Source of the DNA: an uncultured Gammaproteobacteria bacterium
GTDB lineage: Bacteria; Patescibacteriota; Microgenomatia; Levybacterales; UBA12049
DNA: 64,000 nucleotides
Direction: 5' to 3'
Assembly: GCA_964598355.1 (NCBI GenBank)
Contig: CAZRBN010000001.1
Span: 5,839 to 69,838, forward strand
Shown: positions 7,611-64,000 of the stretch, one piece after another
How the letters are laid out: the number at the start of each line of letters is the position of its first letter
Position numbering within the stretch: the stretch's first letter is position 1
Position numbers and translations under genes: made by a program
The notes under the pieces: generated by a model
What the model was told of the DNA's origin: nothing
What the model saw: only the letters and a program-made list of their open reading frames with translations
Database searches by the model: none

Positions 7611-9196
7611 ATGTTTTCGAAACAAAACCTCTTTCTTCTATTTTTAGTTTTAGTAGGAACATTTCTCAGATTCTATAATCTCCTCTGGGGGGCACCATTT
7701 TTTTTCATCCTGATGAGCGAAATATAGTATATGCAATTAGTCAGCTTTCTTTTCCCCAGCAATTTAACCCACATTTTTTTGCCTATGGGTCTCTTCCTAT
7801 CTATGCAGTATATTTTATAAACAATTTTTTTTCATTTATTCTAAAAAGAGAAAATGATTTTGCATCTATAATTTTCTGGCTTCGATTTTTCTCTGCAACA
7901 TTTTCTTTATTACTTATTCCGTCTCTATATATCATTGTTTCAAAATTATTTGGCAAAACAGCTGCACTTATTACTGCTTTTTTAGCAACTTTTAGCGTTG
8001 GATTTATTCAATATGCGCATTTTGGAACATTTGAAATGTGGAATACTTTTTTTACTTTATGGTTATTCTATTTTTCTATTCGCTTAACAAAAGGCTCTTC
8101 TTTCCAAACAATTCTAAGAATAAGTACAGTCATGGGTATTTTGTTATCAGTAAAAGTATCAAACAGTATATTATTTCCATTACCTATTCTGGGTATAGTG
8201 ATGTATCAGTACATCACTATAAAGTCACTCTTATATAAAAAATTGCTAGGCAATATTTTACTCTATATAGTTATAGTTGCGGTAATATTTGTAGTAACAA
8301 ACCCTTTCGCATTACTTGATTTTCAATCATTTTTTAACAGTATCCATTATGAATCCTCAGTTGCTTTAGGGACACTTCCGGTTTTTTATACGGGAAGTTT
8401 TTTTAATACTATCCCAATACTTTTTCAATTTTCTAAGGTCTATCCTTTTCTTGTAAATCCATTCGTCGAATTTCTTTTTATCCCAGCCTTCTTTTTTGTT
8501 ATTTTTAAGGGAATTAAAAATAAAAACATGGCCATTATACTGCTTGCTGCATATTACATACTCGTCTTTCTATCTCAAGCATTTTTTTATGTGAAATGGA
8601 CACGCTATGTACTTCCTACACTTCCTTTTCTCTATATAATGACTGCTATGTTTCTTACCAACTTACCTACCAAACTGAAAAAAATAACATTAGTATTCCT
8701 TGGCATATTCGTCATTATATACAGTTATGCTTTTATAAAAACGGTTTATTTTTCACAGGATACCAGAATTGCTGCGTCAGTATGGGCAAAACATACAATA
8801 GCATCCACTAGTCCTACTGTAAGTGAGCCTTATGATCTGGGTATTATTCCTTTTAACCCTCTTTTCCCGAATATACAACTAATTCCTGTCTATGACATCG
8901 AAACTAATGCCGATGCTTTCTCTCTGGTGCAACAAAACCTTTCACAAGCAAAAATATTTATTATTCCAAGTCAGCGACTTATTCATAGTAGAATGATTAA
9001 TAAAACTACTTTCCCAAAAGGGAACACTCTTTATACCAATCTTTTAGACAATAAAACAGATTTTAAAAAAGTATATGAAACACCATGTAATATATTTTGC
9101 AAAATAGTATATGACGGAGATCCTCTCTTTAATGTAGAAGAAACAACAACTGTCTTTGATCGACCAACAGTAGTTATCTTTGAAAAAAAGCTATGA
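7611..9196 (+). pseudogene. GT39/GT-C family membrane glycosyltransferase (PMT/ArnT-like), frameshifted within a G6/T8 homopolymer region at 7687-7706; paralog of the 9193..10905 gene
   Basis: Frame 0 from ATG 7611 reads MFSKQNLFLLFLVLVGTFLRFYNLLWGAPFFF and stops at 7727. Frame 2 opens at 7679 and continues HPDERNIVYAISQLSFPQQFNPHFFAYGSLPIY to 9196. The intact paralog has the same order (LRAYGINWDNGFHLHPDERAI...NPHFFAYGSFPLY), so the break is a -1 shift relative to an intact gene. Confidence 0.7.
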
Positions 9197-16556: not shown

Positions 16557-18413
16557 ATGAACAATGACCTTCTCAAGCAACTGAATAAACAGCAACAAGA
16601 GGCTGTTTTGTACAACCAAGGCCCCATGATTATCCTCGCCGGTGCAGGATCTGGGAAAACTCGTGTTCTTACCTTTAAAGTATTATACCTAATATCCGAA
16701 CTGAAAATTTCTGCCGTAAATATTTTATGTCTTACCTTTACTAACAAAGCTGCCAATGAAATGAAAGAGCGTATTCAAAAAATTCTTTCAGCAACAAGTC
16801 AACCAACCGTTGCTACTTTTCATTCTCTATGTGCAAAAATTCTCAGGCGTGAAGCGATGCATCTGGGAATGACCTCTGATTTTGTTATCTATGATACACA
16901 AGATCAGCAGGATGCTCTTAAACAAGTCATGGAGCTTTTAAATATTTCAACCAAAGAATACAAACCTGCAGCAATTCATGCTATGATATCTCAGGCTAAG
17001 AATGAAATGCTTTCTCCTTCTGAATATAGTCAATTTGCAAAAGGGACATTTCAGCAAGTAGTTAGCATTGTCTATTCTGCCTATCAAAAACTCCTCAAAG
17101 CAAATAATGCATTTGATTTTGACGATTTACTCCTTCAAGTTGTTGCCCTTTTTGACCAGCATCCGGAAATCCTTGAAAAGTATCAAGAGAAATTTCAGTA
17201 TATTCTTATTGATGAGTATCAGGATACGAATAAAGTCCAATACAAACTTACTCGACAATTAGGAAGAAAGTACAACAATGTGTGTGTGGTTGGAGATTTT
17301 TCTCAGTCCATCTATTCCTGGCGTGGAGCTGACTTTCAAAATCTTTCTAAATTCAAGGTTGATTTCCCAAATGTCCGGACTTTTGAGCTATCTCAAAATT
17401 ATCGTTCTACGCAAAAAATTCTTGATGCTGCATCTCATGTTATTTCCCACAATACCACTCACCCAGTCCTTAAGTTGTGGACAAAAAATGATGGTGGAGA
17501 AGAATTGGTAGTCTATGAAGCACGAAACGAACAGGAAGAAATACTGTTTATCACAAGCTTTATCCAAAATTATGGATCAGATAATTTATCTGACATTGCT
17601 ATTTTGTATAGGACAAACGCGCAATCCCGCGTTGTTGAAGAAATTCTTCTGCACCATGGCATTCCTTACACTCTCATTGGGGGAACACGATTTTATGAGA
17701 GAAAAGAAGTTAAGGATGTTCTATCATACTTGCGTGCAGTTGTTAATCGAAAAGACAGTGTTTCATGGAAAAGAATTGAAAAATTAGGAAAAACTCGCCT
17801 TCTCAAATTTGAAGTCTTTTTGGAAGACCTGAAAGGGAAAGACCCTTTACCAACCATTGATTTATTGGATGGCATTATGCGTGCAACTGGATATTTGGAT
17901 TTGTATGATGAAGATGACGAAGAAGATAGACAAAGGCTGGAAAATATTAAAGAACTCCGCTCTGTTGCTCTCTCTTTTTCTAGTGTAGTGAATTTCTTAG
18001 AAAATGTTGCACTTGTTGAACAAGAGTATTCTCCTACAGCCCAAGCAGGTATGCCTGATGGGTCAGTAGGACAAAAAACAAATGCTGTTACACTTATGAC
18101 TCTTCATGCTGCAAAGGGACTGGAATTCCCTGTTGTTTTTATGATTGGTATGGAAGAAGGCCTTTTCCCACACAGTCGATCTCTTATGGATAAAAATGAG
18201 TTGGAAGAAGAAAGAAGACTTTGCTATGTGGGGATGACACGAGCTAAAGAACGGCTTTTTCTTACCTATACTACGAAACGTCTCTTTTTTGGACAACGTA
18301 GTACAAATACTATCTCAAGGTTTATACTAGAATTACCTGAAGATGTCATTGGAGAGCAGCTCAAGCCTCCAGGGTATAAGGACAGTGATGGAGATTATCC
18401 AGACTACCTATGA
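16557..18413 (+). CDS. pcrA: ATP-dependent DNA helicase PcrA/UvrD (SF1)
   Basis: QQEAVLYNQGPMIILAGAGSGKTRVLT (Walker A), DEYQDTN (motif II), plus the conserved VGDFSQSIYSWRGA and LMTLHAAKGLEFPVVF motifs. Confidence 0.85.
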   Translation: MNNDLLKQLNKQQQEAVLYNQGPMIILAGAGSGKTRVLTFKVLYLISELKISAVNILCLTFTNKAANEMKERIQKILSATSQPTVATFHSLCAKILRREAMHLGMTSDFVIYDTQDQQDALKQVMELLNISTKEYKPAAIHAMISQAKNEMLSPSEYSQFAKGTFQQVVSIVYSAYQKLLKANNAFDFDDLLLQVVALFDQHPEILEKYQEKFQYILIDEYQDTNKVQYKLTRQLGRKYNNVCVVGDFSQSIYSWRGADFQNLSKFKVDFPNVRTFELSQNYRSTQKILDAASHVISHNTTHPVLKLWTKNDGGEELVVYEARNEQEEILFITSFIQNYGSDNLSDIAILYRTNAQSRVVEEILLHHGIPYTLIGGTRFYERKEVKDVLSYLRAVVNRKDSVSWKRIEKLGKTRLLKFEVFLEDLKGKDPLPTIDLLDGIMRATGYLDLYDEDDEEDRQRLENIKELRSVALSFSSVVNFLENVALVEQEYSPTAQAGMPDGSVGQKTNAVTLMTLHAAKGLEFPVVFMIGMEEGLFPHSRSLMDKNELEEERRLCYVGMTRAKERLFLTYTTKRLFFGQRSTNTISRFILELPEDVIGEQLKPPGYKDSDGDYPDYL

Positions 18414-18472: not shown

Positions 18473-19495
18473 ATGAGTATGTGGAGAGATATAACACCCA
18501 AAGATAAAGATGCTTTTAATAAGCTCGCAACACATCCTTTACAATCCTTTGAATGGGGAGAATTTCGTGAACATACAGGGATAAGAGTGGTAAGACGTGG
18601 TTTAGAACAAAATGACAAATTAATACAAGCTTTTCAACTAACAATTCATAACATTCCCCGTACGCCTTGGACCATAGGCTATTTACCAAAAGGCACTCTA
18701 CCCACAAAGGAATTATTGGAAGAACTACAAAGAGTTGGAAAAGAAAACAATTGTATTTTTATACAATTGGAACCCAATGTTCAGAAGCAAGAATTAGGAA
18801 TCATGAATCAAGGGAAGAATTGGAAATTGCCACAGGCTGCACATCCACTTTTTACAAAACATACCTTACAGCTTGATCTGACAAAAGCAGACGAAGATCT
18901 CCTCAAGGCAATGCATCCCAAAGCAAGGTATAACATTAAAGTTGCTCAAAAGCACAATGTTATTGTTAAAGAAGAAAATTCCTCAAAAGCCTTTGATATA
19001 TTTTGGGAATTGACCGAAAAAACAACATCTCGTCAACGGTTTTTTGCTCATACAAAGTCCTACCACCAAGCCCAATGGAAGACGCTTCCTCATAATGCAA
19101 AAGAGAATATACTCTCTTCACATTTACTCATTGCAACATATAAAGACCAACCGCTTACCGCATGGATTGTTTTTATTTTTAAAGATAGCTTGTACTATCC
19201 ATACGGTGCATCTTCTCAAGAGCATCGTGAAGTCATGCATTCAACGCTCATGATGTGGGAAGCAATTTGCTTTGGAAAAAAGCATAAACTGAAGTTTTTC
19301 GATTTGTGGGGCTCGGCTGCACCAGGAACTCCTCCATCAGATCCCTGGTTTGGCTTTACACAGTTTAAAGAGCGCTTTGGACCAGAGAGAATAGAATTCG
19401 TAGGAAGTTACGATTTAATAATTAACCCCCTGCTTTACCAAGGCTACAAACTTGCTGATAAACTCCGTTGGTTGATCCTGAAATTAAGCAAGTAA
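18473..19495 (+). CDS. FemAB-family peptidyltransferase (peptidoglycan interpeptide-bridge formation, FemX/MurM-like)
   Basis: About 340 aa; the sequence resembles lipid II:aminoacyl-transferases of the FemABX family (...QSFEWGEFREHTGIRV...FFDLWGSAAPGTPPSDPWFGFTQFKERFG). The ORF track places the first ATG at 18437; the start is uncertain. Confidence 0.55.
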   Translation: MSMWRDITPKDKDAFNKLATHPLQSFEWGEFREHTGIRVVRRGLEQNDKLIQAFQLTIHNIPRTPWTIGYLPKGTLPTKELLEELQRVGKENNCIFIQLEPNVQKQELGIMNQGKNWKLPQAAHPLFTKHTLQLDLTKADEDLLKAMHPKARYNIKVAQKHNVIVKEENSSKAFDIFWELTEKTTSRQRFFAHTKSYHQAQWKTLPHNAKENILSSHLLIATYKDQPLTAWIVFIFKDSLYYPYGASSQEHREVMHSTLMMWEAICFGKKHKLKFFDLWGSAAPGTPPSDPWFGFTQFKERFGPERIEFVGSYDLIINPLLYQGYKLADKLRWLILKLSK

Positions 19496-20086
19496 TTTGT
19501 AAACAAAGATTTTCTTTTCTTCATCACGCTTGAGTAATTTCAAATGCCCCTTATATGCCTCTTTTGGAAAATCATATATATACGTAATAAGAAGAGTTCC
19601 AGGCTTAAGCTCTTTAAAAAATTTCTTTGAAAGACCAGTGAGTGCTTTTGGAACCAAATAGACAAAAATAACAGTTGCTGCTGAAAGAGGTACATCAAAA
19701 AAGTTCTTTTTAATAATAGTTATATCTATTTCCTTTGATACTAAGTTTGACTTGGTCTTTTTCTGGTTTTCTTTTTTAATCGCGTTTGATGTGACCATAA
19801 CATTCCACTTAGCTAGCCAAACACGTACAGGATCTATTTCTATTCAAACACCTTTTGCTCCAAATTCTTTTGCTGCAATACATAAAGCCTTACCAGTTCC
19901 ACATCCTAAATCATAAATACTGTCTTTTGATGAAAGCTTTGCAACTTTACACATTTCTCGTATAACATCCTCAGGCATTTGCCACCAGGGAGCCCAGGGA
20001 CTATCAGGGGGCCACACTGCTGATAAAACAAGGAAAAGACCAAAGATAATAAGAAGGACCATAAGCTCAGTAAGAATAAATGCCAT
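19484..20086 (-). pseudogene. Membrane-anchored class I SAM-dependent methyltransferase interrupted by a single in-frame TGA (19844-19846) at a conserved Gly position
   Basis: Upstream ORF: TM helix plus DLGCGTGKALCIAAKEFGAKGV (SAM motif I). Then TGA, then in the same frame IEIDPVRVWLAKWNV-MVTSNAIKK.... The post-I motif G(V)GIEIDP of methyltransferases predicts Gly exactly where the TGA sits. Confidence 0.6.
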
Positions 20087-20222
20087 AGCTTTTATACTAC
20101 AAGAGCATATAGGTTATGGCAATGGCAGAAGTGCATGCAGAGATTGATGAAAAATAGAGTGAGATACTAAGTGCTTACTAAAAGCATGGAATCTCTTACT
20201 ATTCTAGTATCCCGTGTCTCTT

Positions 20223-21296
20223 TTACTTTAGGTATTTGTCGAAAAAGGCAATTGAGCGGTCCATTGCCAAAGAAAAGTTATGAGAAATATTATGATTGTC
20301 ACCAGAATATGTGTATAATTCTGCACTCTTTCCCAAACTCTTCAATTTATTGTATACATTCTCAGAAAAAGATACTGGTACTTCTTCATCCTGTTCTCCT
20401 GCCTGTATTTGGATAGGTGCTGTTATATCTTTGAGAAAGAATGTCGGGTCAATGGAATTCCAAAAATTTGGGTTAGATTCTGGGGTACCATATGATTTTT
20501 CAAGGTTTGCTCTATAACGATATCGAAGTGAGAGCTCATACGCAGAAGGGTGATATGCAGGGTCATGCCAATGCTCCAAATCTGTATATGTTCCAATAAC
20601 GCCTCCCCAAATGACCGCAGCTTTTATATCCTTTGTATTAACAACAATATTCCGAAGAGTAATATTACCACCCAGAGAATGTCCCCACATGCCAATTTTT
20701 TGAGGATTAGCATCCTTATATCTTTTTACAGAAGCGACCCCATTTAAGACATCTGTAGCATACGCTGATGAATAATATGCACCTTCTGGCTTACCATCTG
20801 AATTTCCATTCCCTCTATAATCCGGCTTCAAAACAATATAACCTGCACGTGCAAAAGGAGGATAATAGGTGGCATACTGCCCTATTTCAGGAAATGTTTG
20901 ATAGGTTGTCGGTGCAATATACCCATGATTAAAAACAATCACAGGCCATCCACTCCTTGGTTTCTGTCCTTCTGGAATAGTCATTAACGCATAAATTTTA
21001 TTCCCTTCAGATTGATAACTAACAATGTATTGGTTGTAATTACTTCCACTAGAAAGTGTCTGTTCTATAATAATGTCACTTCCTGGATACGTTTGCTGTC
21101 GCATGTTTGCAATACTTAGTGAGATAGAGGGAACATGAGGAGTTACTTGTTGTGAACTACTCTCCTTTAATGGAGGTAGGACTTGTCTATAGGCAAGATA
21201 TCCTCCAATACCCACAAGAAGTATCAACATAATAAGTAACATCTTCTTCATATACCTATTGTACACCTGAGGAATAAGAAACTCCTGAAAAATCAC
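20223..21296 (-). CDS. Secreted/membrane-anchored alpha/beta hydrolase, prolyl-oligopeptidase (S9)/esterase-like
   Basis: Signal/TM MKKMLLIMLILLVGIGGYLAY, the GHSLGG nucleophile elbow (GxSxG) and a C-terminal Asp/His region. An alternative start is MKKM at about 21251. Confidence 0.7.
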   Translation of the reverse strand: MIFQEFLIPQVYNRYMKKMLLIMLILLVGIGGYLAYRQVLPPLKESSSQQVTPHVPSISLSIANMRQQTYPGSDIIIEQTLSSGSNYNQYIVSYQSEGNKIYALMTIPEGQKPRSGWPVIVFNHGYIAPTTYQTFPEIGQYATYYPPFARAGYIVLKPDYRGNGNSDGKPEGAYYSSAYATDVLNGVASVKRYKDANPQKIGMWGHSLGGNITLRNIVVNTKDIKAAVIWGGVIGTYTDLEHWHDPAYHPSAYELSLRYRYRANLEKSYGTPESNPNFWNSIDPTFFLKDITAPIQIQAGEQDEEVPVSFSENVYNKLKSLGKSAELYTYSGDNHNISHNFSLAMDRSIAFFDKYLK

Positions 21297-21640
21297 CTCT
21301 GGGGATAGATAACTTTTCCAACAAGAAACTCTTTAGAAACCCATCCAAAGTGCCTACTATCTGTACTTTCCTTCTTATTATCTCCTTCTACAAAAAGTTT
21401 TTCTTTATCTATCTGCATTATTCGCTTTACTAATAATCGTCCATTTCTTGGATCTTTCAGAACAACTATATTTCCTGTTCTTAGATTTCCAAACAACCAA
21501 ACAAGTATCTTTTGTTTTGGGAAAAGGGTCGGTGTCATACTGGCTCCAACAATATCAAAAATACGTATTGGAACTAGAATGGATAGTATTTTTTTAAAAT
21601 TTTTGAGAATTGAAGATTGATTGGAAATTGGAAATTGCAA
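21293..21640 (-). CDS. sodX: S26-family signal-peptidase-like protease, candidate SodX (NiSOD maturation peptidase)
   Basis: 115 aa. DIVGASMTPTL is the S26 catalytic Ser box; VKRIM and GDNKKESTDSRHFGWV are further S26 boxes. It sits immediately downstream of the NiSOD gene. Confidence 0.65.
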   Translation of the reverse strand: MQFPISNQSSILKNFKKILSILVPIRIFDIVGASMTPTLFPKQKILVWLFGNLRTGNIVVLKDPRNGRLLVKRIMQIDKEKLFVEGDNKKESTDSRHFGWVSKEFLVGKVIYPQR

Positions 21641-21648
21641 ATTTAAAA

Positions 21649-22089
21649 TTATTTTGCTGCTGCAGCTTTTGCTTTTTCAAACATGTCTGCTATTTCATTT
21701 ACAGCCATTACTAATTTTTCTGCTGATTCCATACTAACATGCTGTTTATTTTCCGAACACAATTTTGCTGCTTTCCAAAAAGTGTCATGAAGATTTGGAA
21801 ACATTTCCAAATGTTGTGGTTTAAAATAATCAGTCCATAGGATAAGGAGCTCTTCCTTGCATTTTCTTGCGTGCTCTTCTTTAGTCCAAATGTAGCGAAC
21901 AAAATTTGCGTGATCATCAGTGGTCCATTTGTCTTTTTCTGGAAGTGCATCTACTTTTTCAACCATTTTTGCGACTGTCGCTGCTGCAATTTGTGCTGGT
22001 TTTGGATCATAAATGCCACATGGGATATCACAATGTGCATACACAGGCTGAGAAGGAAGAACAGAAAGAAGTTGACTTAGAATGTTCAT
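21649..22089 (-). CDS. sodN: Nickel superoxide dismutase precursor (NiSOD)
   Basis: An 18-aa propeptide MNILSQLLSVLPSQPVYA is followed by HCDIPCGIYDP. This is the Ni-hook His-Cys-X-X-Pro-Cys-Gly-X-Tyr that must become the mature N-terminus. 146 aa, the normal NiSOD size. Confidence 0.8.
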   Translation of the reverse strand: MNILSQLLSVLPSQPVYAHCDIPCGIYDPKPAQIAAATVAKMVEKVDALPEKDKWTTDDHANFVRYIWTKEEHARKCKEELLILWTDYFKPQHLEMFPNLHDTFWKAAKLCSENKQHVSMESAEKLVMAVNEIADMFEKAKAAAAK

Positions 22090-58127: not shown

Positions 58128-59693
<1,566 letters not shown>

Positions 59694-60054
59694 AGAGATG
59701 TATTACTGAAACATATGTAAAAAACATACTTTTACTATTTTAAAAGTTATCAATTTTGTAAACTCATAGGGTTTTTGGGCTTTAAAAATCGGTGAGTTTT
59801 ATGATGTTGTAACATTACAGACTTTGGTAGATTGAGTAAGCTTTGTTGCTTTTTAGTTTTTTGGGCTTTAAAACTTGTTGCATGCATAAGCTATATAGAC
59901 TACACGAGTTTTAAAAACTGTATAAGCTCTTTACAGGTTTTGTTTTTTGTTGTTTTAAAAGAAAAATATTTGTATACTAAAAGAGTTGTTTTGTTGTGCT
60001 TAATTGGCGGCTTTGTATGAAGATATAGCATATTTAATTTTGCACTAATCACGT

Positions 60055-60372: not shown

Positions 60373-60779
60373 ATTAAACTTCAAGGGTACATATAAGTAA
60401 AATGAAAAACTTAAAATTGCGGTATTTTATTTATTGATAAAGTATCGTAATTTTTCACCTATTATTTTCCATTTTTATTAGCTTTGTCTTCTTCTTGAAT
60501 TTGCTAATTACTGCAAATAGATTTAGATTTTTGGGAAAATAATTTCATAAAATTATGATCAATAAATATCATCAATACTCCTCTTTAGACTATTAAATCA
60601 AGTAAAAATAGTACGCAATCTGTCTACTATATATATTTAGGATATTGACTAGATATACTAAAACCAATTACAGTTAAATTAGGCTTAAAAAATGATCTTT
60701 TTTGAGATAAGAAAGTGCCCACACATTTCTACTTTTTTTAGCCTTAGCATTTATTTTTTAAAACAACAAGATGGATTCA

Positions 60780-63700
60780 GCTCGCCCAGGCAATCCTAAA
60801 AAGTTATTGACGTTGAAAGAAGCTGCCCAGCAATTGGCAGTTTCTATTGACGTCCTCATCGAATGGAATAAGCACCACATTCTCAAACCTACTATCACAC
60901 CTGAAGGCGAAATGGGCTATACGCCTGAGCAACTGGAAGACTTTGCACAAATCAGACAATCGCTTCTCGAGGGAGTCTCACTCAATACAGAAAAACCTTC
61001 ACAAGATTTGCCTGGGCGGGCTGAGTCTATTGTGGAGAATGCAATCTATGAAGAAAGGAGGACGCAAAGCAATCTCTACCAAAAATTCTTAAGGTGGATT
61101 GGACGTGAATTCTACAGTGATGACTTCGTCAAAGAATATCTCAAATCTCAAGTGAGAGACTCACTAACATCTCCTATTAAGATGCCATCACGCAAAGTAG
61201 CTACCATTACAACAGGAATCATTGTCATTGGTGTGATAACATTATTTACTCAACAAAACCACATTAAATTTATTTTTGATACATATCAAGAGCGATTTAT
61301 AAAATTAACCGAAAATAGAACCAAAATTCTAGGGGCACAGACAAGCAAACTTCAACTTACTGGAAATGTTATTTTTGGTCTTCCTGTAGAATTTAAAGAA
61401 AACGCAACATTAAAAAAAGATCTCACCGTTGCGGGAAACGGCACATTTACTGGCCATCTAACAGCTCCAAATATTTTATACGGCTTCAAAGCTGGAGCAA
61501 ACGTTAAGGTCGCTGGAGACAAGCAAAACCCAACCATCTCAGTTGATCTTTCTAAGACAGTTACCTCGATAGGAGGTCTTGTAGGAGATATAACATTACA
61601 AGCTGGAAACACAGACATTACCATTACTGGCACGACCATTTCAAACACAGCAACCCTGAGTACTGTTGTTAGTCGAGGACACTGCTCGAGTTGTGTAACA
61701 AATGCTGATGTAGCACACAATTTGATTATTGATGCAACCGGTCAAATTGCCGGAGAAGCAATTAAGTCAGGCGTTATTAGTCCAAGTGTTGGAGGGACTG
61801 GTTTGACAACGTACACATCAGGAGCATTTTTGTATGCTTCTTCGTCAAATGTCCTTGCCACACTGCCAATCGGAACAGCCAATGGACAAATTTTACAGGT
61901 ACAAAATGGTCTTCCATCTTGGACATCCATTGCACTTAATGCTGCAGGAGCAAACTCAAACACGTCAGGAGCAAACTTGGTTGGTGTCTTCCCTAATCTC
62001 ACCAATACAACAGCCACAAATTTACAACAAGTGTTAAAAGACTTGGATTCATCAATTACATCAGCTGGACAATCTCCTTTTATCATTAACACTGACGTAA
62101 CCTACGGAAATTATATAAGGTCAAGCACTACCTCAAACCATTTTGTACTTGGAGGTAATGGTTCGATTACAAAATCGACGCTATTTTTTAATGCAACAAC
62201 AGGAAATCTTGCTCTTGGCACTGCTGCCTCCATCAGTGGTACGCTCACTCTTAATGCGTCTGGTACTGGAGCAACTGCCCCAACCATTTCTGCAAGTTCG
62301 TCTGGTGATTTGCTCATTCCAACGGGCAATATCGGAATTGGCATCGGTACTAATCCTTTTGATGTCGATGCTTCTAATAACCCTTTCAGACTTGAAGTAG
62401 CAGGAAGTATTGGGCCAAACGCTAATAATACATACGACTTAGGTTCACCAACCAGACAATACCGAAACCTGTACCTTTCTGGCCAGACAACCTCAGGAGG
62501 AAATATAACAATAGCCAATACTTCACCAACAATAACATTTATTGATACTGATCCTGGTGAGAATCAATTTGCAATTAATACTGACGCTTCAAAATTTGTC
62601 ATAAACAATAACACAACAGGCCTTAAAGCATTTGCCATAACTGCAAACGGAGACCTTGCTCTAGGTTCAACAGCAACTGCAAATGCTCCATTTTCTTTTC
62701 TTAACGTAGCAAGCGGTACTCCTATCGCATCTGTCTCTGCAGGAGCAAGCGGAGCAACATATTTGACAGCAAATGGGACCCTAGCAACCACAGCAAAGCA
62801 AACATTAACCCTAGGAACGATAACCACAGGCAATATTGTCTTGGCTCCTGGAGGAGTAACAGCACTACAAACAGCTGGTACTAACTTAATTGCAGGAGGA
62901 ACCCTTACCGGACTCACTGGTATTACCTCTTCAGGGACTATCACTTTTAGCGGTCTTACCAATGGATTGCTTAAAGCAAATGGCTCTGGCGCTCTTTCTA
63001 TCGCAGTGCCAGGAGCTGATTTTGAAAATCCACTTACTTTCTCAAATGGTTTAACACGAACAAGTAATGCAGTTGCCTTAGGAGGCACTCTAACTGGTAA
63101 CACGGATCTCCCATTAGCTGGATTTAACCTCACATTATCTGGAAGCGGAAAGGTTGGTATAGGAACAGCCACCCCATCTGCTCTGCTTCATATACAAGGA
63201 GGTAACACAGGTGGAAATGCAGCACTTATTGTTAATCAAACAGGTGCAGTAACTAATGATTTGTTTACCGCATCCTCATCCGGAACCACCCAATTTACCA
63301 TTGCAAACAATGGTAATATTACTGCCAATGGTACTCTTCTCTCTTTGGGGAATGGCTCTGCTGCAACCATCAATACTCCATCTGGCAATGCTTCTCTCAC
63401 GGTTGCTCCTAATGGCACAGGTGCTTTGAACTTAGGTACTACCAACACTGGCAATGTTGCCATTGGAAACAGTACTGGTACCTTTGCTCTCACCTCCAGT
63501 GGTGGCTTAAATGTCACTACCGCTGGTGCTCTCACTGGTGTCTCTTCTCTGGACACCATCACCACTTCTGCTACCTCTCTTGGGTTTGCCAATGCAGGTA
63601 CCATTTCCACTGGCAACAATGGTAACTTCACCATTACTCCTAATGGCACTGGCAACACTGTTCTGACAAGTACTGCAACCAGTGGTGTTCTCGTTGGTTC

Positions 63701-64000
63701 CTCATCCAATACCCTCGCTCCGCTCTCTGTCTCTGGTGGCATTGGGTCCAATGCTTCTTTCATTGTGAACAATTTGAACTCTGGTGATTTGTTCACTGCA
63801 AGTGCAAGTGGAACTACCCGATTCACTGTTGCCAACAATGGCAGTTTGAAGAACAATTTGCTCCCTAATATTACCAACACCTATGACGTAGGATCCGCAT
63901 CCTTCCAATGGAACAATGTCTATGCCAACAACATTTATCAAAATGGTACTCCTCTCACCCAACTCTTCCAGAGAAACAATGGTGCACTTTCACCATTCAA
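60780..64000 (+). CDS. Giant cell-surface protein (partial, more than 1070 aa in window): N-terminal excisionase/MerR-like HTH, one TM helix, then a long Gly/Thr/Asn/Ala-rich beta-helical, tail-fibre-like repeat region. It continues past the window end
   Basis: Translation from ATG 60780 is open to position 64000. KLLTLKEAAQQLAVSIDVLIEWNKHHIL is HTH_17-like. The TM is VATITTGIIVIGVITLF (aa ~140-160). Repeats include GKVGIGTATPSALLHIQGGN. A motif recurs as NTYDLGSPTRQYRNLYLSG and NTYDVGSASFQWNNVYANNIY. The minus-strand ORFs in this region are antisense artefacts (Pro/Val/Ala-rich). Confidence 0.65.

What the first reader, a model, noticed from the sequence alone, without database searches (positions are those of the whole stretch)
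19484..20086. In-frame TGA at an invariant Gly position of a SAM-methyltransferase: pseudogene, sequencing error or localized recoding
The two minus-strand ORFs share one frame and are separated only by TGA at 19844-19846. Reading through gives ...DLGCGTGKALCIAAKEFGAKGV-[TGA]-IEIDPVRVWLAK..., so the stop falls exactly where class I methyltransferases have the Gly of the G(V)GIEIDP box. UGA-to-Gly is the defining reassignment of genetic code 25 (SR1/Gracilibacteria). The rest of the window clearly uses TGA as stop: many long ORFs end on TGA and there are no other split genes. The likeliest explanations are therefore a GGA-to-TGA point mutation (young pseudogene) or a base-call error. The exact coincidence with a Gly codon still deserves a check.
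Basis: partly seen in the sequence, partly recalled or inferred. Interest (0 to 1): 0.55.

Follow-up and report, generated by a model that had tools for sequence, protein, structure and literature searches.

The report
Private stop codon in methyltransferase gene
The in-frame TGA is a one-letter G-to-T difference found only in this assembly, because near-identical DNA from two other sequencing runs reads GGA (glycine) there and one of them has the whole gene intact, so it is an ordinary nonsense variant or consensus error and not a change of the genetic code.

Summary
A minus-strand TGA at 19846-19844 splits a 200-codon membrane-anchored class I SAM methyltransferase. It sits on a glycine that is invariant in 29 aligned homologues and is GGN in 79 of 79 related genomic loci.

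It is not recoding:
- Sixteen other genes in the window end in TGA. TIM, the UvrD-like helicase, DUF2298 and the S26 peptidase stop where their orthologues stop.
- Coding density under the standard code is 93%.
- The relatives are Levybacteria/Microgenomates, not the code-25 lineages.
- No RNA structure or Rfam match lies at the site.

The decisive evidence comes from independent assemblies. A Logan contig from SRR31070013 matches the window at 981 of 983 bases. It carries GGA and an intact 200-aa ORF. A second contig, from SRR12266074, is 100% identical over 1,484 bases and then reads G at that base.

The T is therefore not fixed in this population. It is either a consensus miscall or minority allele in the deposited MAG (my lean) or a very young nonsense allele. 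Only reads can decide.

A second lesion exists in the window: a T8 homopolymer frameshift in a glycosyltransferase at 7698-7705. So "no other split genes" is not quite right. Interest is low.

The parts
19484..20086 (-). Whole interrupted gene: 200 codons for a membrane-anchored class I SAM-dependent methyltransferase (aKMT-like). It is intact in a near-identical strain.
   Evidence: Translation. Pfam domains span the stop. 1,456 homologues at E<=1e-5, typically about 183 aa. The intact 200-aa allele is P0124/L086. The closest solved structures are aKMT 5FA8/5JWJ, E=6.6e-22.
19844..19846 (-). The in-frame TGA, codon 81. On the plus strand it reads TCA. The variant base is 19846: T on the minus strand, A on the plus strand.
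   Evidence: The same position is G in L001 (SRR12266074) and L086 (SRR31070013), giving GGA. The codon is GGN in 79 of 79 related loci.
19844..20086 (-). N-terminal fragment as translated under the standard code (80 aa). It contains a hydrophobic helix (about 20015-20077), the invariant WPPDSPWAPWW motif (19982-20014) and SAM-binding motif I DLGCGTG (19892-19912).
   Evidence: ORF list. Invariant columns W25-W35, L60, G61 and G63. The product is on record from an NCBI contig of 69,987 nt.
19484..19843 (-). C-terminal remainder: 119 codons plus TAA, with no further lesion. The first possible restart is the ATG at 19798, which would lose the invariant E83/D85 of the IEIDP box.
   Evidence: The amino-acid sequence is identical to the intact allele P0124. 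All 82 orthologue alignments continue 89-104 residues past the position of the TGA.
19724..19795 (-). Lineage-specific variable loop, residues 98-121 (VTSNAIKKENQKKTKSNLVSKEID). It is about 16 aa longer than in the closest homologues and is also present in the intact allele.
   Evidence: Alignment. P0124 has the same sequence. Other family members (P0009, P0010, P0013, P0054) carry unrelated insertions at the same place.
19787..19787 (-). The only other difference from the SRR31070013 contig: TCA in the window against TCG, a synonymous Ser change.

Best explanation
The TGA is a single G-to-T replacement of the first base of a GGA glycine codon. It is private to this assembly and not fixed in the population. 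The organism uses the standard bacterial code, so UGA terminates here. The 80-aa product lacks the IEIDP acidic box and the rest of the Rossmann fold, so it would be dead. The normal allele in this population is the intact 200-aa gene. My lean is that the T is a consensus miscall or a minority allele that the assembler of the deposited MAG picked up, and not the dominant base in the cells.

Shown: the lesion, the intact GGA allele in near-identical DNA, and TGA acting as a stop in the window.

Inferred: that the T is not the majority base in the source reads, and that the fragment is non-functional. Separately from this lean, I put 'no recoding of any kind' at about 0.95.
For: (1) L086 (Logan, SRR31070013) matches window 20233..19251 at 981 of 983 bases. 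It has GGA at the site and an uninterrupted 200-aa ORF whose other 199 residues are identical. The second difference is synonymous.

(2) L001 (Logan, SRR12266074) is 100% identical to window 21330..19847, and its next and last base is G. L084 from the same run and L087 from SRR12266076 are 100% identical over 2,086 and 1,191 bases. In about 4.5 kb of same-strain sequence, the only discrepancy is therefore this base.

(3) All 79 related loci have GGN: GGT 24, GGA 22, GGG 21, GGC 12. None has TGA. GGA is the window's preferred Gly codon.

(4) TGA is a true terminator. TIM ends ...ITNS* and the helicase ends ...DYPDYL* on TGA, exactly where the L002 orthologues end on TAA and TAG. The terminus offset is 0 in 54 of 60 TIM orthologues and 33 of 34 helicase orthologues, and within about 2 residues for most DUF2298 and S26 orthologues. 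Relatives also use TGA stops.

(5) Coding density is 92.6% under code 11.

(6) The region downstream of the stop has no further lesions.

(7) The window holds a second lesion of a kind that assemblies often get wrong, a T8 homopolymer frameshift. This is compatible with imperfect consensus quality.
Against: No reads could be inspected, so T could be the majority base in the sample that gave the MAG. A 70-kb contig suggests decent coverage, at which Illumina substitution errors in the consensus are rare.

L001 carries only one base of the alternative allele, and it stops exactly on that base. That points to heterogeneity in the SRR12266074 reads at or just after the site, which would fit a real segregating allele as well as an error. 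L086 comes from a different run and differs at one more site, so it may be a slightly different strain.
Confidence: 0.6

Rival explanations
1. This is a genuine nonsense mutation that is dominant or fixed in the sampled strain. It would be a very young pseudogene or a segregating loss-of-function allele of the methyltransferase, still without secondary decay.
For: The sequence as deposited carries TGA. The source contig is 69,987 nt long, which suggests adequate coverage. The Logan contig of SRR12266074 breaks exactly at the site, and window 19711-19845 is left unassembled in that run, as expected if two alleles coexist. The window differs from L086 at another, synonymous site, so real strain-level SNPs occur here. 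A second disrupted gene at 7698-7705 could equally be real gene decay or phase variation.
Against: Both independent assemblies that reach the site read G. One of them comes from a run whose contigs are otherwise 100% identical to the window. The glycine is invariant in more than 100 homologues and the family is widely conserved, so purifying selection is expected. There is no secondary lesion in 119 downstream codons.
Confidence: 0.33
2. The UGA is decoded site-specifically, by near-cognate read-through or by a suppressor tRNA such as tRNA-Gly(UCA) encoded elsewhere in the genome or on a phage. Full-length enzyme is then still made, and GGA/TGA is a near-neutral polymorphism.
For: The stop sits exactly on a Gly codon. 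The sister allele is GGA, which is the pattern a synonymous change would give under UGA=Gly. The downstream ORF is perfectly preserved.
Against: A suppressor tRNA would also read through the 16 bona fide TGA terminators in the window. There is no tRNA gene in the window. There is no stimulatory structure: a 91-nt stretch from 14 nt upstream of the TGA to 74 nt downstream folds no better than shuffles, z=+0.54. Rfam gives no match in 19400-20200 at E<=1. A preserved downstream ORF is equally expected for an error or a very recent mutation.
Confidence: 0.03
3. The genome uses genetic code 25 (UGA=Gly), as Absconditabacteria/SR1 and Gracilibacteria do. A variant of this idea is that the gene was recently acquired from such a donor.
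For: UGA falls at an invariant Gly. The organism belongs to the Candidate Phyla Radiation, which also contains the code-25 lineages (background in PMC8629427).
Against: Only one in-frame TGA occurs in about 19,700 codons. Sixteen other genes end in TGA, several at the orthologous terminus. Coding density under code 11 is 92.6%. The closest relatives are Levybacteria/Microgenomates MAGs, which themselves end genes on TGA. Synteny of peptidase, MTase, FemAB, helicase, TIM and LytR is conserved with L002, which argues against recent transfer.
Confidence: 0.01
4. The UGA encodes selenocysteine.
For: It is an in-frame UGA in an enzyme gene.
Against: The homologous residue is always Gly and never Cys. 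It lies in a beta-strand of the SAM-binding fold, not at a redox site. There is no hairpin downstream and no Rfam hit. No sel genes appear among the ORFs scanned.
Confidence: 0.005

Closest known systems
Ordinary nonsense SNP or consensus error ('internal stop' pseudogene call) in a metagenome-assembled genome
   Same: It is a single-base change of a sense codon to a stop in an otherwise perfect ORF. The intact allele is found in near-identical sequence from other runs.
   Different: Nothing differs in kind. The only open point is whether the base is a real allele or a miscall.
Genetic code 25 (UGA=Gly) of Absconditabacteria (SR1) and Gracilibacteria
   Same: UGA sits at a conserved Gly position, and the host is a CPR bacterium with low GC (36%).
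   Different: Code-25 genomes carry UGA at many Gly positions, do not terminate on UGA, encode tRNA-Gly(UCA) and lack RF2 (PMC8629427). Here there is one UGA of this kind. UGA ends 16 genes, several at orthologous termini, and the lineage is Levybacteria-like.
aKMT, the crenarchaeal protein-lysine N-methyltransferase (PDB 5FA8, 5FAD, 5JWJ; NCBIfam NF041081)
   Same: It has the same class I fold and motif order. The alignment covers residues 30-173 at E=6.6e-22 and includes the ...VG[IV]EI... strand that carries the affected Gly.
   Different: The window protein has an N-terminal hydrophobic anchor, an invariant WPPDSPWAPWW motif and a lineage-specific loop. It scores 77.7 bits against a curated cut-off of 200 for NF041081. 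It is a relative and not a member, and its substrate is unknown.
Bacterial selenocysteine recoding (UGA plus SECIS hairpin)
   Same: An in-frame UGA inside an enzyme gene.
   Different: There is no Cys/Sec homology, no downstream hairpin and no Rfam match.

Membership tests
Genetic code 25 (UGA=Gly) | In-frame UGA recurs at conserved Gly columns in many genes | tested here: not met
   There is one case in about 19,700 codons of 58 ORFs. The scan for same-frame neighbouring ORFs found no other real split. The apparent candidates at 61352-63880 are antisense artefacts of a plus-strand gene.
Genetic code 25 (UGA=Gly) | UGA is not used as a terminator | tested here: not met
   Besides the MTase fragment, 16 ORFs end in TGA. 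The termini coincide with orthologues for TIM (54/60), the helicase (33/34), DUF2298 and the S26 peptidase.
Genetic code 25 (UGA=Gly) | tRNA-Gly with anticodon UCA is present | not testable with these tools
   ARAGORN finds no tRNA gene at all in the 64-kb window. The rest of the genome is not available.
Genetic code 25 (UGA=Gly) | Release factor 2 (prfB) is absent | not testable with these tools
   No RF domain appears among the ORFs scanned. Absence from 64 kb says nothing about the genome.
Genetic code 25 (UGA=Gly) | Placement in Absconditabacteria or Gracilibacteria | tested here: not met
   The closest loci are Levybacteria/Levyibacteriota, Microgenomates and unclassified Patescibacteria MAGs, and gene order is conserved with them.
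Class I (Rossmann-fold) SAM-dependent methyltransferase | Motif I (D/E)xGxGxG, an acidic residue at the end of strand beta-2, and a domain-level profile match | tested here: met
   DLGCGTG and GIEID are present and conserved. DOT1 scores 32.4 bits (cut-off 23), Methyltransf_31 30.7 (27) and PrmA 28.1 (22) on the read-through protein.
aKMT-type protein-lysine N-methyltransferase (NF041081) | Score at or above the curated equivalog cut-off of 200 bits | tested here: not met
   The score is 77.7 bits. The PDB aKMT chains are nevertheless the best solved relatives.
Pseudogene (fixed, decaying) | A disabling lesion relative to intact orthologues | tested here: met
   There is a premature stop at codon 81 of 200. 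All 82 orthologue alignments continue 89-104 residues further.
Pseudogene (fixed, decaying) | The lesion is fixed in the lineage, or further decay is present | tested here: not met
   The intact GGA allele occurs in near-identical DNA from SRR31070013, and G occurs in SRR12266074. There is no second lesion.
Selenoprotein (UGA=Sec) | A SECIS hairpin just 3' of the UGA, and Cys in homologues at the same column | tested here: not met
   The fold z-score is +0.54. There is no Rfam match. The column is Gly in all homologues.

The most novel reading that the evidence does not exclude
A standard-code Levybacterium carries, elsewhere in its genome or on a resident phage, a tRNA-Gly(UCA)-type suppressor that decodes a fraction of UGA codons as glycine. 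GGA/TGA would then be a tolerated polymorphism at this site, which could represent an early, ambiguous stage on the path to code 25 within the Candidate Phyla Radiation.
Probability: 0.015. Interest if true: 0.75.

Novelty: already known. Interest (0 to 1): 0.06.

Why it matters
The practical value is for annotation. The record should carry this gene as an internal-stop pseudogene or as a probable consensus error, not as two hypothetical proteins and not as evidence for an alternative code.

It is also a useful negative control for code screens. A single UGA on an invariant glycine in a CPR genome looks like code 25. It dissolves once terminator usage at orthologous C-termini and near-identical assemblies are checked.

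The gene family itself is a membrane-anchored aKMT-like methyltransferase with an invariant WPPDSPWAPWW motif, widespread in Levybacteria. It is uncharacterised and may deserve attention on its own, independently of the stop.

Tried and rejected
- Minus-strand ORFs at 61352-63880 share one frame and are separated by TGAs, so they looked like further split genes. They are antisense artefacts of a large plus-strand T/G/N-rich gene that runs off the window.
- The genome-contig scan did not recover the window's own genome. The best relative was 66% identical.
- The metagenome contigs pattern search with N at the variant base found only a distant relative, L085. It happens to share 28 bases around the site and has GGA.
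- Exact look-ups returned nothing for the C-terminal ORF, FemAB from the second ATG, TIM and the amine oxidase. The FemAB form starting MSMWRD... worked.
- A literature search for the two SRA run numbers found nothing.
- The last homology search, on the repaired N-terminus of the frameshifted glycosyltransferase, found no near-identical protein. Exact look-ups of the T9 and T6 repaired products also failed. That lesion therefore could not be classed as error or real.
- I looked for a recoding signal, either a hairpin or an Rfam family, at the stop. There was none.
- I considered that the two fragments act as a split enzyme and rejected it. The first restart codon is M97, so the invariant E83 and D85 would be missing from both pieces.
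- I tried to explain from de Bruijn graph logic why L001 ends exactly on the variant base. No model fitted cleanly, so this is left as unexplained.

Full report
**The observation**

On the minus strand the window reads ...GGA GCA AAA GGT GTT TGA ATA GAA ATA GAT CCT..., with TGA at 19846-19844. The 80-aa ORF 19844..20086 and the ORF ending at 19484 share one frame and are separated only by this codon. If the stop is replaced by Gly, the 200-aa product matches class I methyltransferase profiles across the junction: DOT1 covers residues 40-168, Methyltransf_31 covers 52-177, and PrmA also matches.

**What the gene is**

The read-through protein has 1,456 relatives at E<=1e-5. Most are about 183 aa and come from Patescibacteria (CPR) metagenomes, and the best are 72-73% identical. 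The family has three conserved parts:
- an N-terminal hydrophobic helix;
- an invariant WPPDSPWAPWW motif;
- a Rossmann-type SAM-binding domain (DLGCGTG ... GVGIEIDP ... NFF ... YLVP).

The closest solved structures are the crenarchaeal protein-lysine methyltransferase aKMT (5FA8, 5FAD, 5JWJ; E=6.6e-22 over residues 30-173). The NCBIfam aKMT model scores 77.7 bits against a cut-off of 200. I therefore call it a membrane-anchored aKMT-like methyltransferase of unknown substrate. It is a relative of that family and not a member.

The window copy has a loop about 16 aa longer (residues 98-121) than its closest relatives. Other family members carry unrelated insertions at the same place.

**The residue under the stop**

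Column 81 is Gly in all 29 aligned homologues. In 79 related genomic loci the codon is always GGN: GGT 24, GGA 22, GGG 21, GGC 12. It is never TGA. These loci were fetched from GTDB species representatives and Logan. They are mostly Levybacteria/Levyibacteriota, Microgenomates and unclassified Patescibacteria MAGs. GGA is also the window's preferred Gly codon, 625 of 1,311. One G-to-T change of GGA therefore explains the stop.

**Is UGA a sense codon in this organism? No.**

- Under the standard code the window is 92.6% coding, with 58 ORFs and about 19,700 codons. The stops of the 56 complete ORFs are TAA 32, TGA 17 and TAG 7.
- The TGA stops are real termini. TIM ends ...IITNS* and the UvrD-like helicase ends ...DYPDYL* on TGA, exactly where the orthologues in locus L002 end on TAA and TAG.
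- Across all fetched loci, the terminus offset is 0 in 54 of 60 TIM orthologues and in 33 of 34 helicase orthologues. It is within about two residues for most DUF2298 and S26 peptidase orthologues.
- By contrast, all 82 alignments to the 80-aa MTase fragment continue for 89-104 more residues.
- The relatives themselves often terminate on TGA; for example, 25 of 34 helicase orthologues do.
- Gene order (S15-type peptidase, MTase, FemAB, helicase, TIM, LytR) is conserved with L002. The gene is therefore resident and not a recent import from a code-25 donor.

Code 25 is defined by UGA=Gly together with tRNA-Gly(UCA) and loss of RF2, in Absconditabacteria and Gracilibacteria (PMC8629427). Three of its features were tested here and not met. 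The window has no tRNA genes and no RF gene among the ORFs scanned, so the other two features cannot be tested from 64 kb.

No local recoding signal exists either. A 91-nt stretch around and downstream of the stop folds no better than shuffled sequence (z=+0.54), and Rfam gives nothing in 19400-20200 even at E<=1.

**The decisive comparison**

The window's fragments are on record from a single NCBI contig of 69,987 nt, presumably the source MAG. The 90%-identity cluster of the C-terminal fragment has one further member, P0124. It is a 200-aa protein identical to the read-through translation, with Gly at position 81.

Its contig L086 (Logan assembly of SRR31070013, 983 nt) differs from window 20233..19251 at two bases only:
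- 19846, G instead of T, which gives GGA;
- 19787, TCG instead of TCA, a synonymous Ser change.

Independently, Logan contig L001 from SRR12266074 is 100% identical to window 21330..19847, and its next and final base is G. Contigs L084 (same run) and L087 (SRR12266076) are 100% identical to the window over 2,086 and 1,191 bases. The same strain is therefore present in those runs, and the only discrepancy in about 4.5 kb is the T of the stop codon.

The intact allele thus exists in this population and the T is not fixed. A GGA/TGA pair would look 'synonymous' under code 25. This comparison alone therefore does not exclude recoding; the terminator evidence above does.

**Error or real allele?**

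This cannot be settled without reads.

For a miscall or minority allele:
- both independent assemblies that reach the site read G;
- the residue and the family are strongly conserved;
- there is no secondary decay;
- the window has a second lesion of an error-prone kind (described below).

For a real allele:
- the source contig is long, which suggests good coverage;
- real strain SNPs occur nearby (19787);
- L001 ends exactly on the variant base, and Logan leaves window 19711-19845 unassembled in that run. This hints at heterogeneity among the reads at or just after the site.

I could not derive the exact break position from a simple two-allele de Bruijn graph, and I record it as unexplained. 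My split is about 0.60 for a consensus miscall or minority allele, 0.33 for a dominant young nonsense allele, and about 0.05 for every form of recoding or suppression together.

Either way, translation under the standard code stops after residue 80. A restart at M97 would lack the invariant E83 and D85. The T allele is therefore a null.

**A second lesion in the window**

The ORF 7679..9196 has 119 start-less codons before its first ATG, at 8036. Those codons encode the conserved ...FFHPDERNIVY... N-terminal region of a PMT_2/ArnT-like glycosyltransferase. An ATG at 7611 opens another frame (MFSKQNLFLLFLVLVGTFLRFYNLLWGAPFFF...) that stops at 7722-7724. The two frames join if the T8 run at 7698-7705 were T9 or T6. 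A relative in L040 aligns across the junction, at query residues 20-142. No near-identical product could be found to show which length is real.

**Verdict**

This is an ordinary single-base nonsense difference in a MAG, of a kind already well known, and interest is low.

Noticed in passing
window 7611-9196 (+), T8 run at 7698-7705: A PMT_2/ArnT-like glycosyltransferase is split by a frameshift in a T8 homopolymer. The ATG at 7611 gives 37 residues before a stop. The main frame has 119 start-less codons encoding ...FFHPDERNIVY.... T9 or T6 would restore a protein of about 528 aa. A relative in L040 aligns across the junction. This could be an assembly error, a pseudogene or a phase-variable tract.
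   Followed up: partly
L001 (SRR12266074) end = window 19846; L084 end = window 19710: The Logan contig stops exactly on the variant base, and the 135 nt between the two contigs are unassembled in that run. This suggests read-level heterogeneity there, but it does not fit a simple SNP bubble.
   Followed up: partly
window 19484-20086 (-) and homologues P0001-P0120: The family itself is uncharacterised. It is an aKMT-like methyltransferase of about 183 aa with an N-terminal membrane helix and an invariant WPPDSPWAPWW motif. It is near-ubiquitous in Levybacteria/Microgenomates MAGs and usually sits next to an S15/S9-type peptidase.
   Followed up: partly
window 19724-19795 (-): A Lys/Asn-rich loop about 16 aa longer than in the closest homologues. 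Other family members have unrelated insertions, up to about 40 aa, at the same point, so it is a hot spot for insertions.
   Followed up: no
window 18183-18277 (+): The only Rfam match above gathering score is RF03531 (n00280, 'C. difficile sRNA included into helicase gene', 67.5 bits). It lies inside the UvrD/PcrA-like helicase ORF 16557-18413, so it probably reflects conserved coding sequence and not an sRNA.
   Followed up: no
window 60762-64000 (+): A very large Thr/Gly/Asn/Ser-rich ORF (>1,079 aa, no Pfam match) runs off the window end. Its antisense strand shows long Val/Pro/Ala-rich pseudo-ORFs separated by TGAs, which mimic split genes. Local GC is 44%, against 36% for the window.
   Followed up: partly
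window 21293-22089 (-): A nickel superoxide dismutase gene (Sod_Ni, 146 aa) is followed by a short S26 peptidase (115 aa). By recall, not tested here, a NiSOD gene next to an S26-type protease is the usual NiSOD plus maturation-protease pair. The pair is conserved in L002/L003.
   Followed up: no
window 19484-19495 versus L002 2212-3615: In the window the MTase and the convergent FemAB gene overlap by 12 nt. The related locus L002 has an extra 467-aa gene without Pfam hits between them.
   Followed up: no
window 59694-60054: There is a 361-nt gap between the 520-aa ORF at 58131-59693 (not scanned; presumed ATP synthase beta, with a Ser-rich C-terminal tail) and the short (105 aa) epsilon gene.
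   Followed up: no
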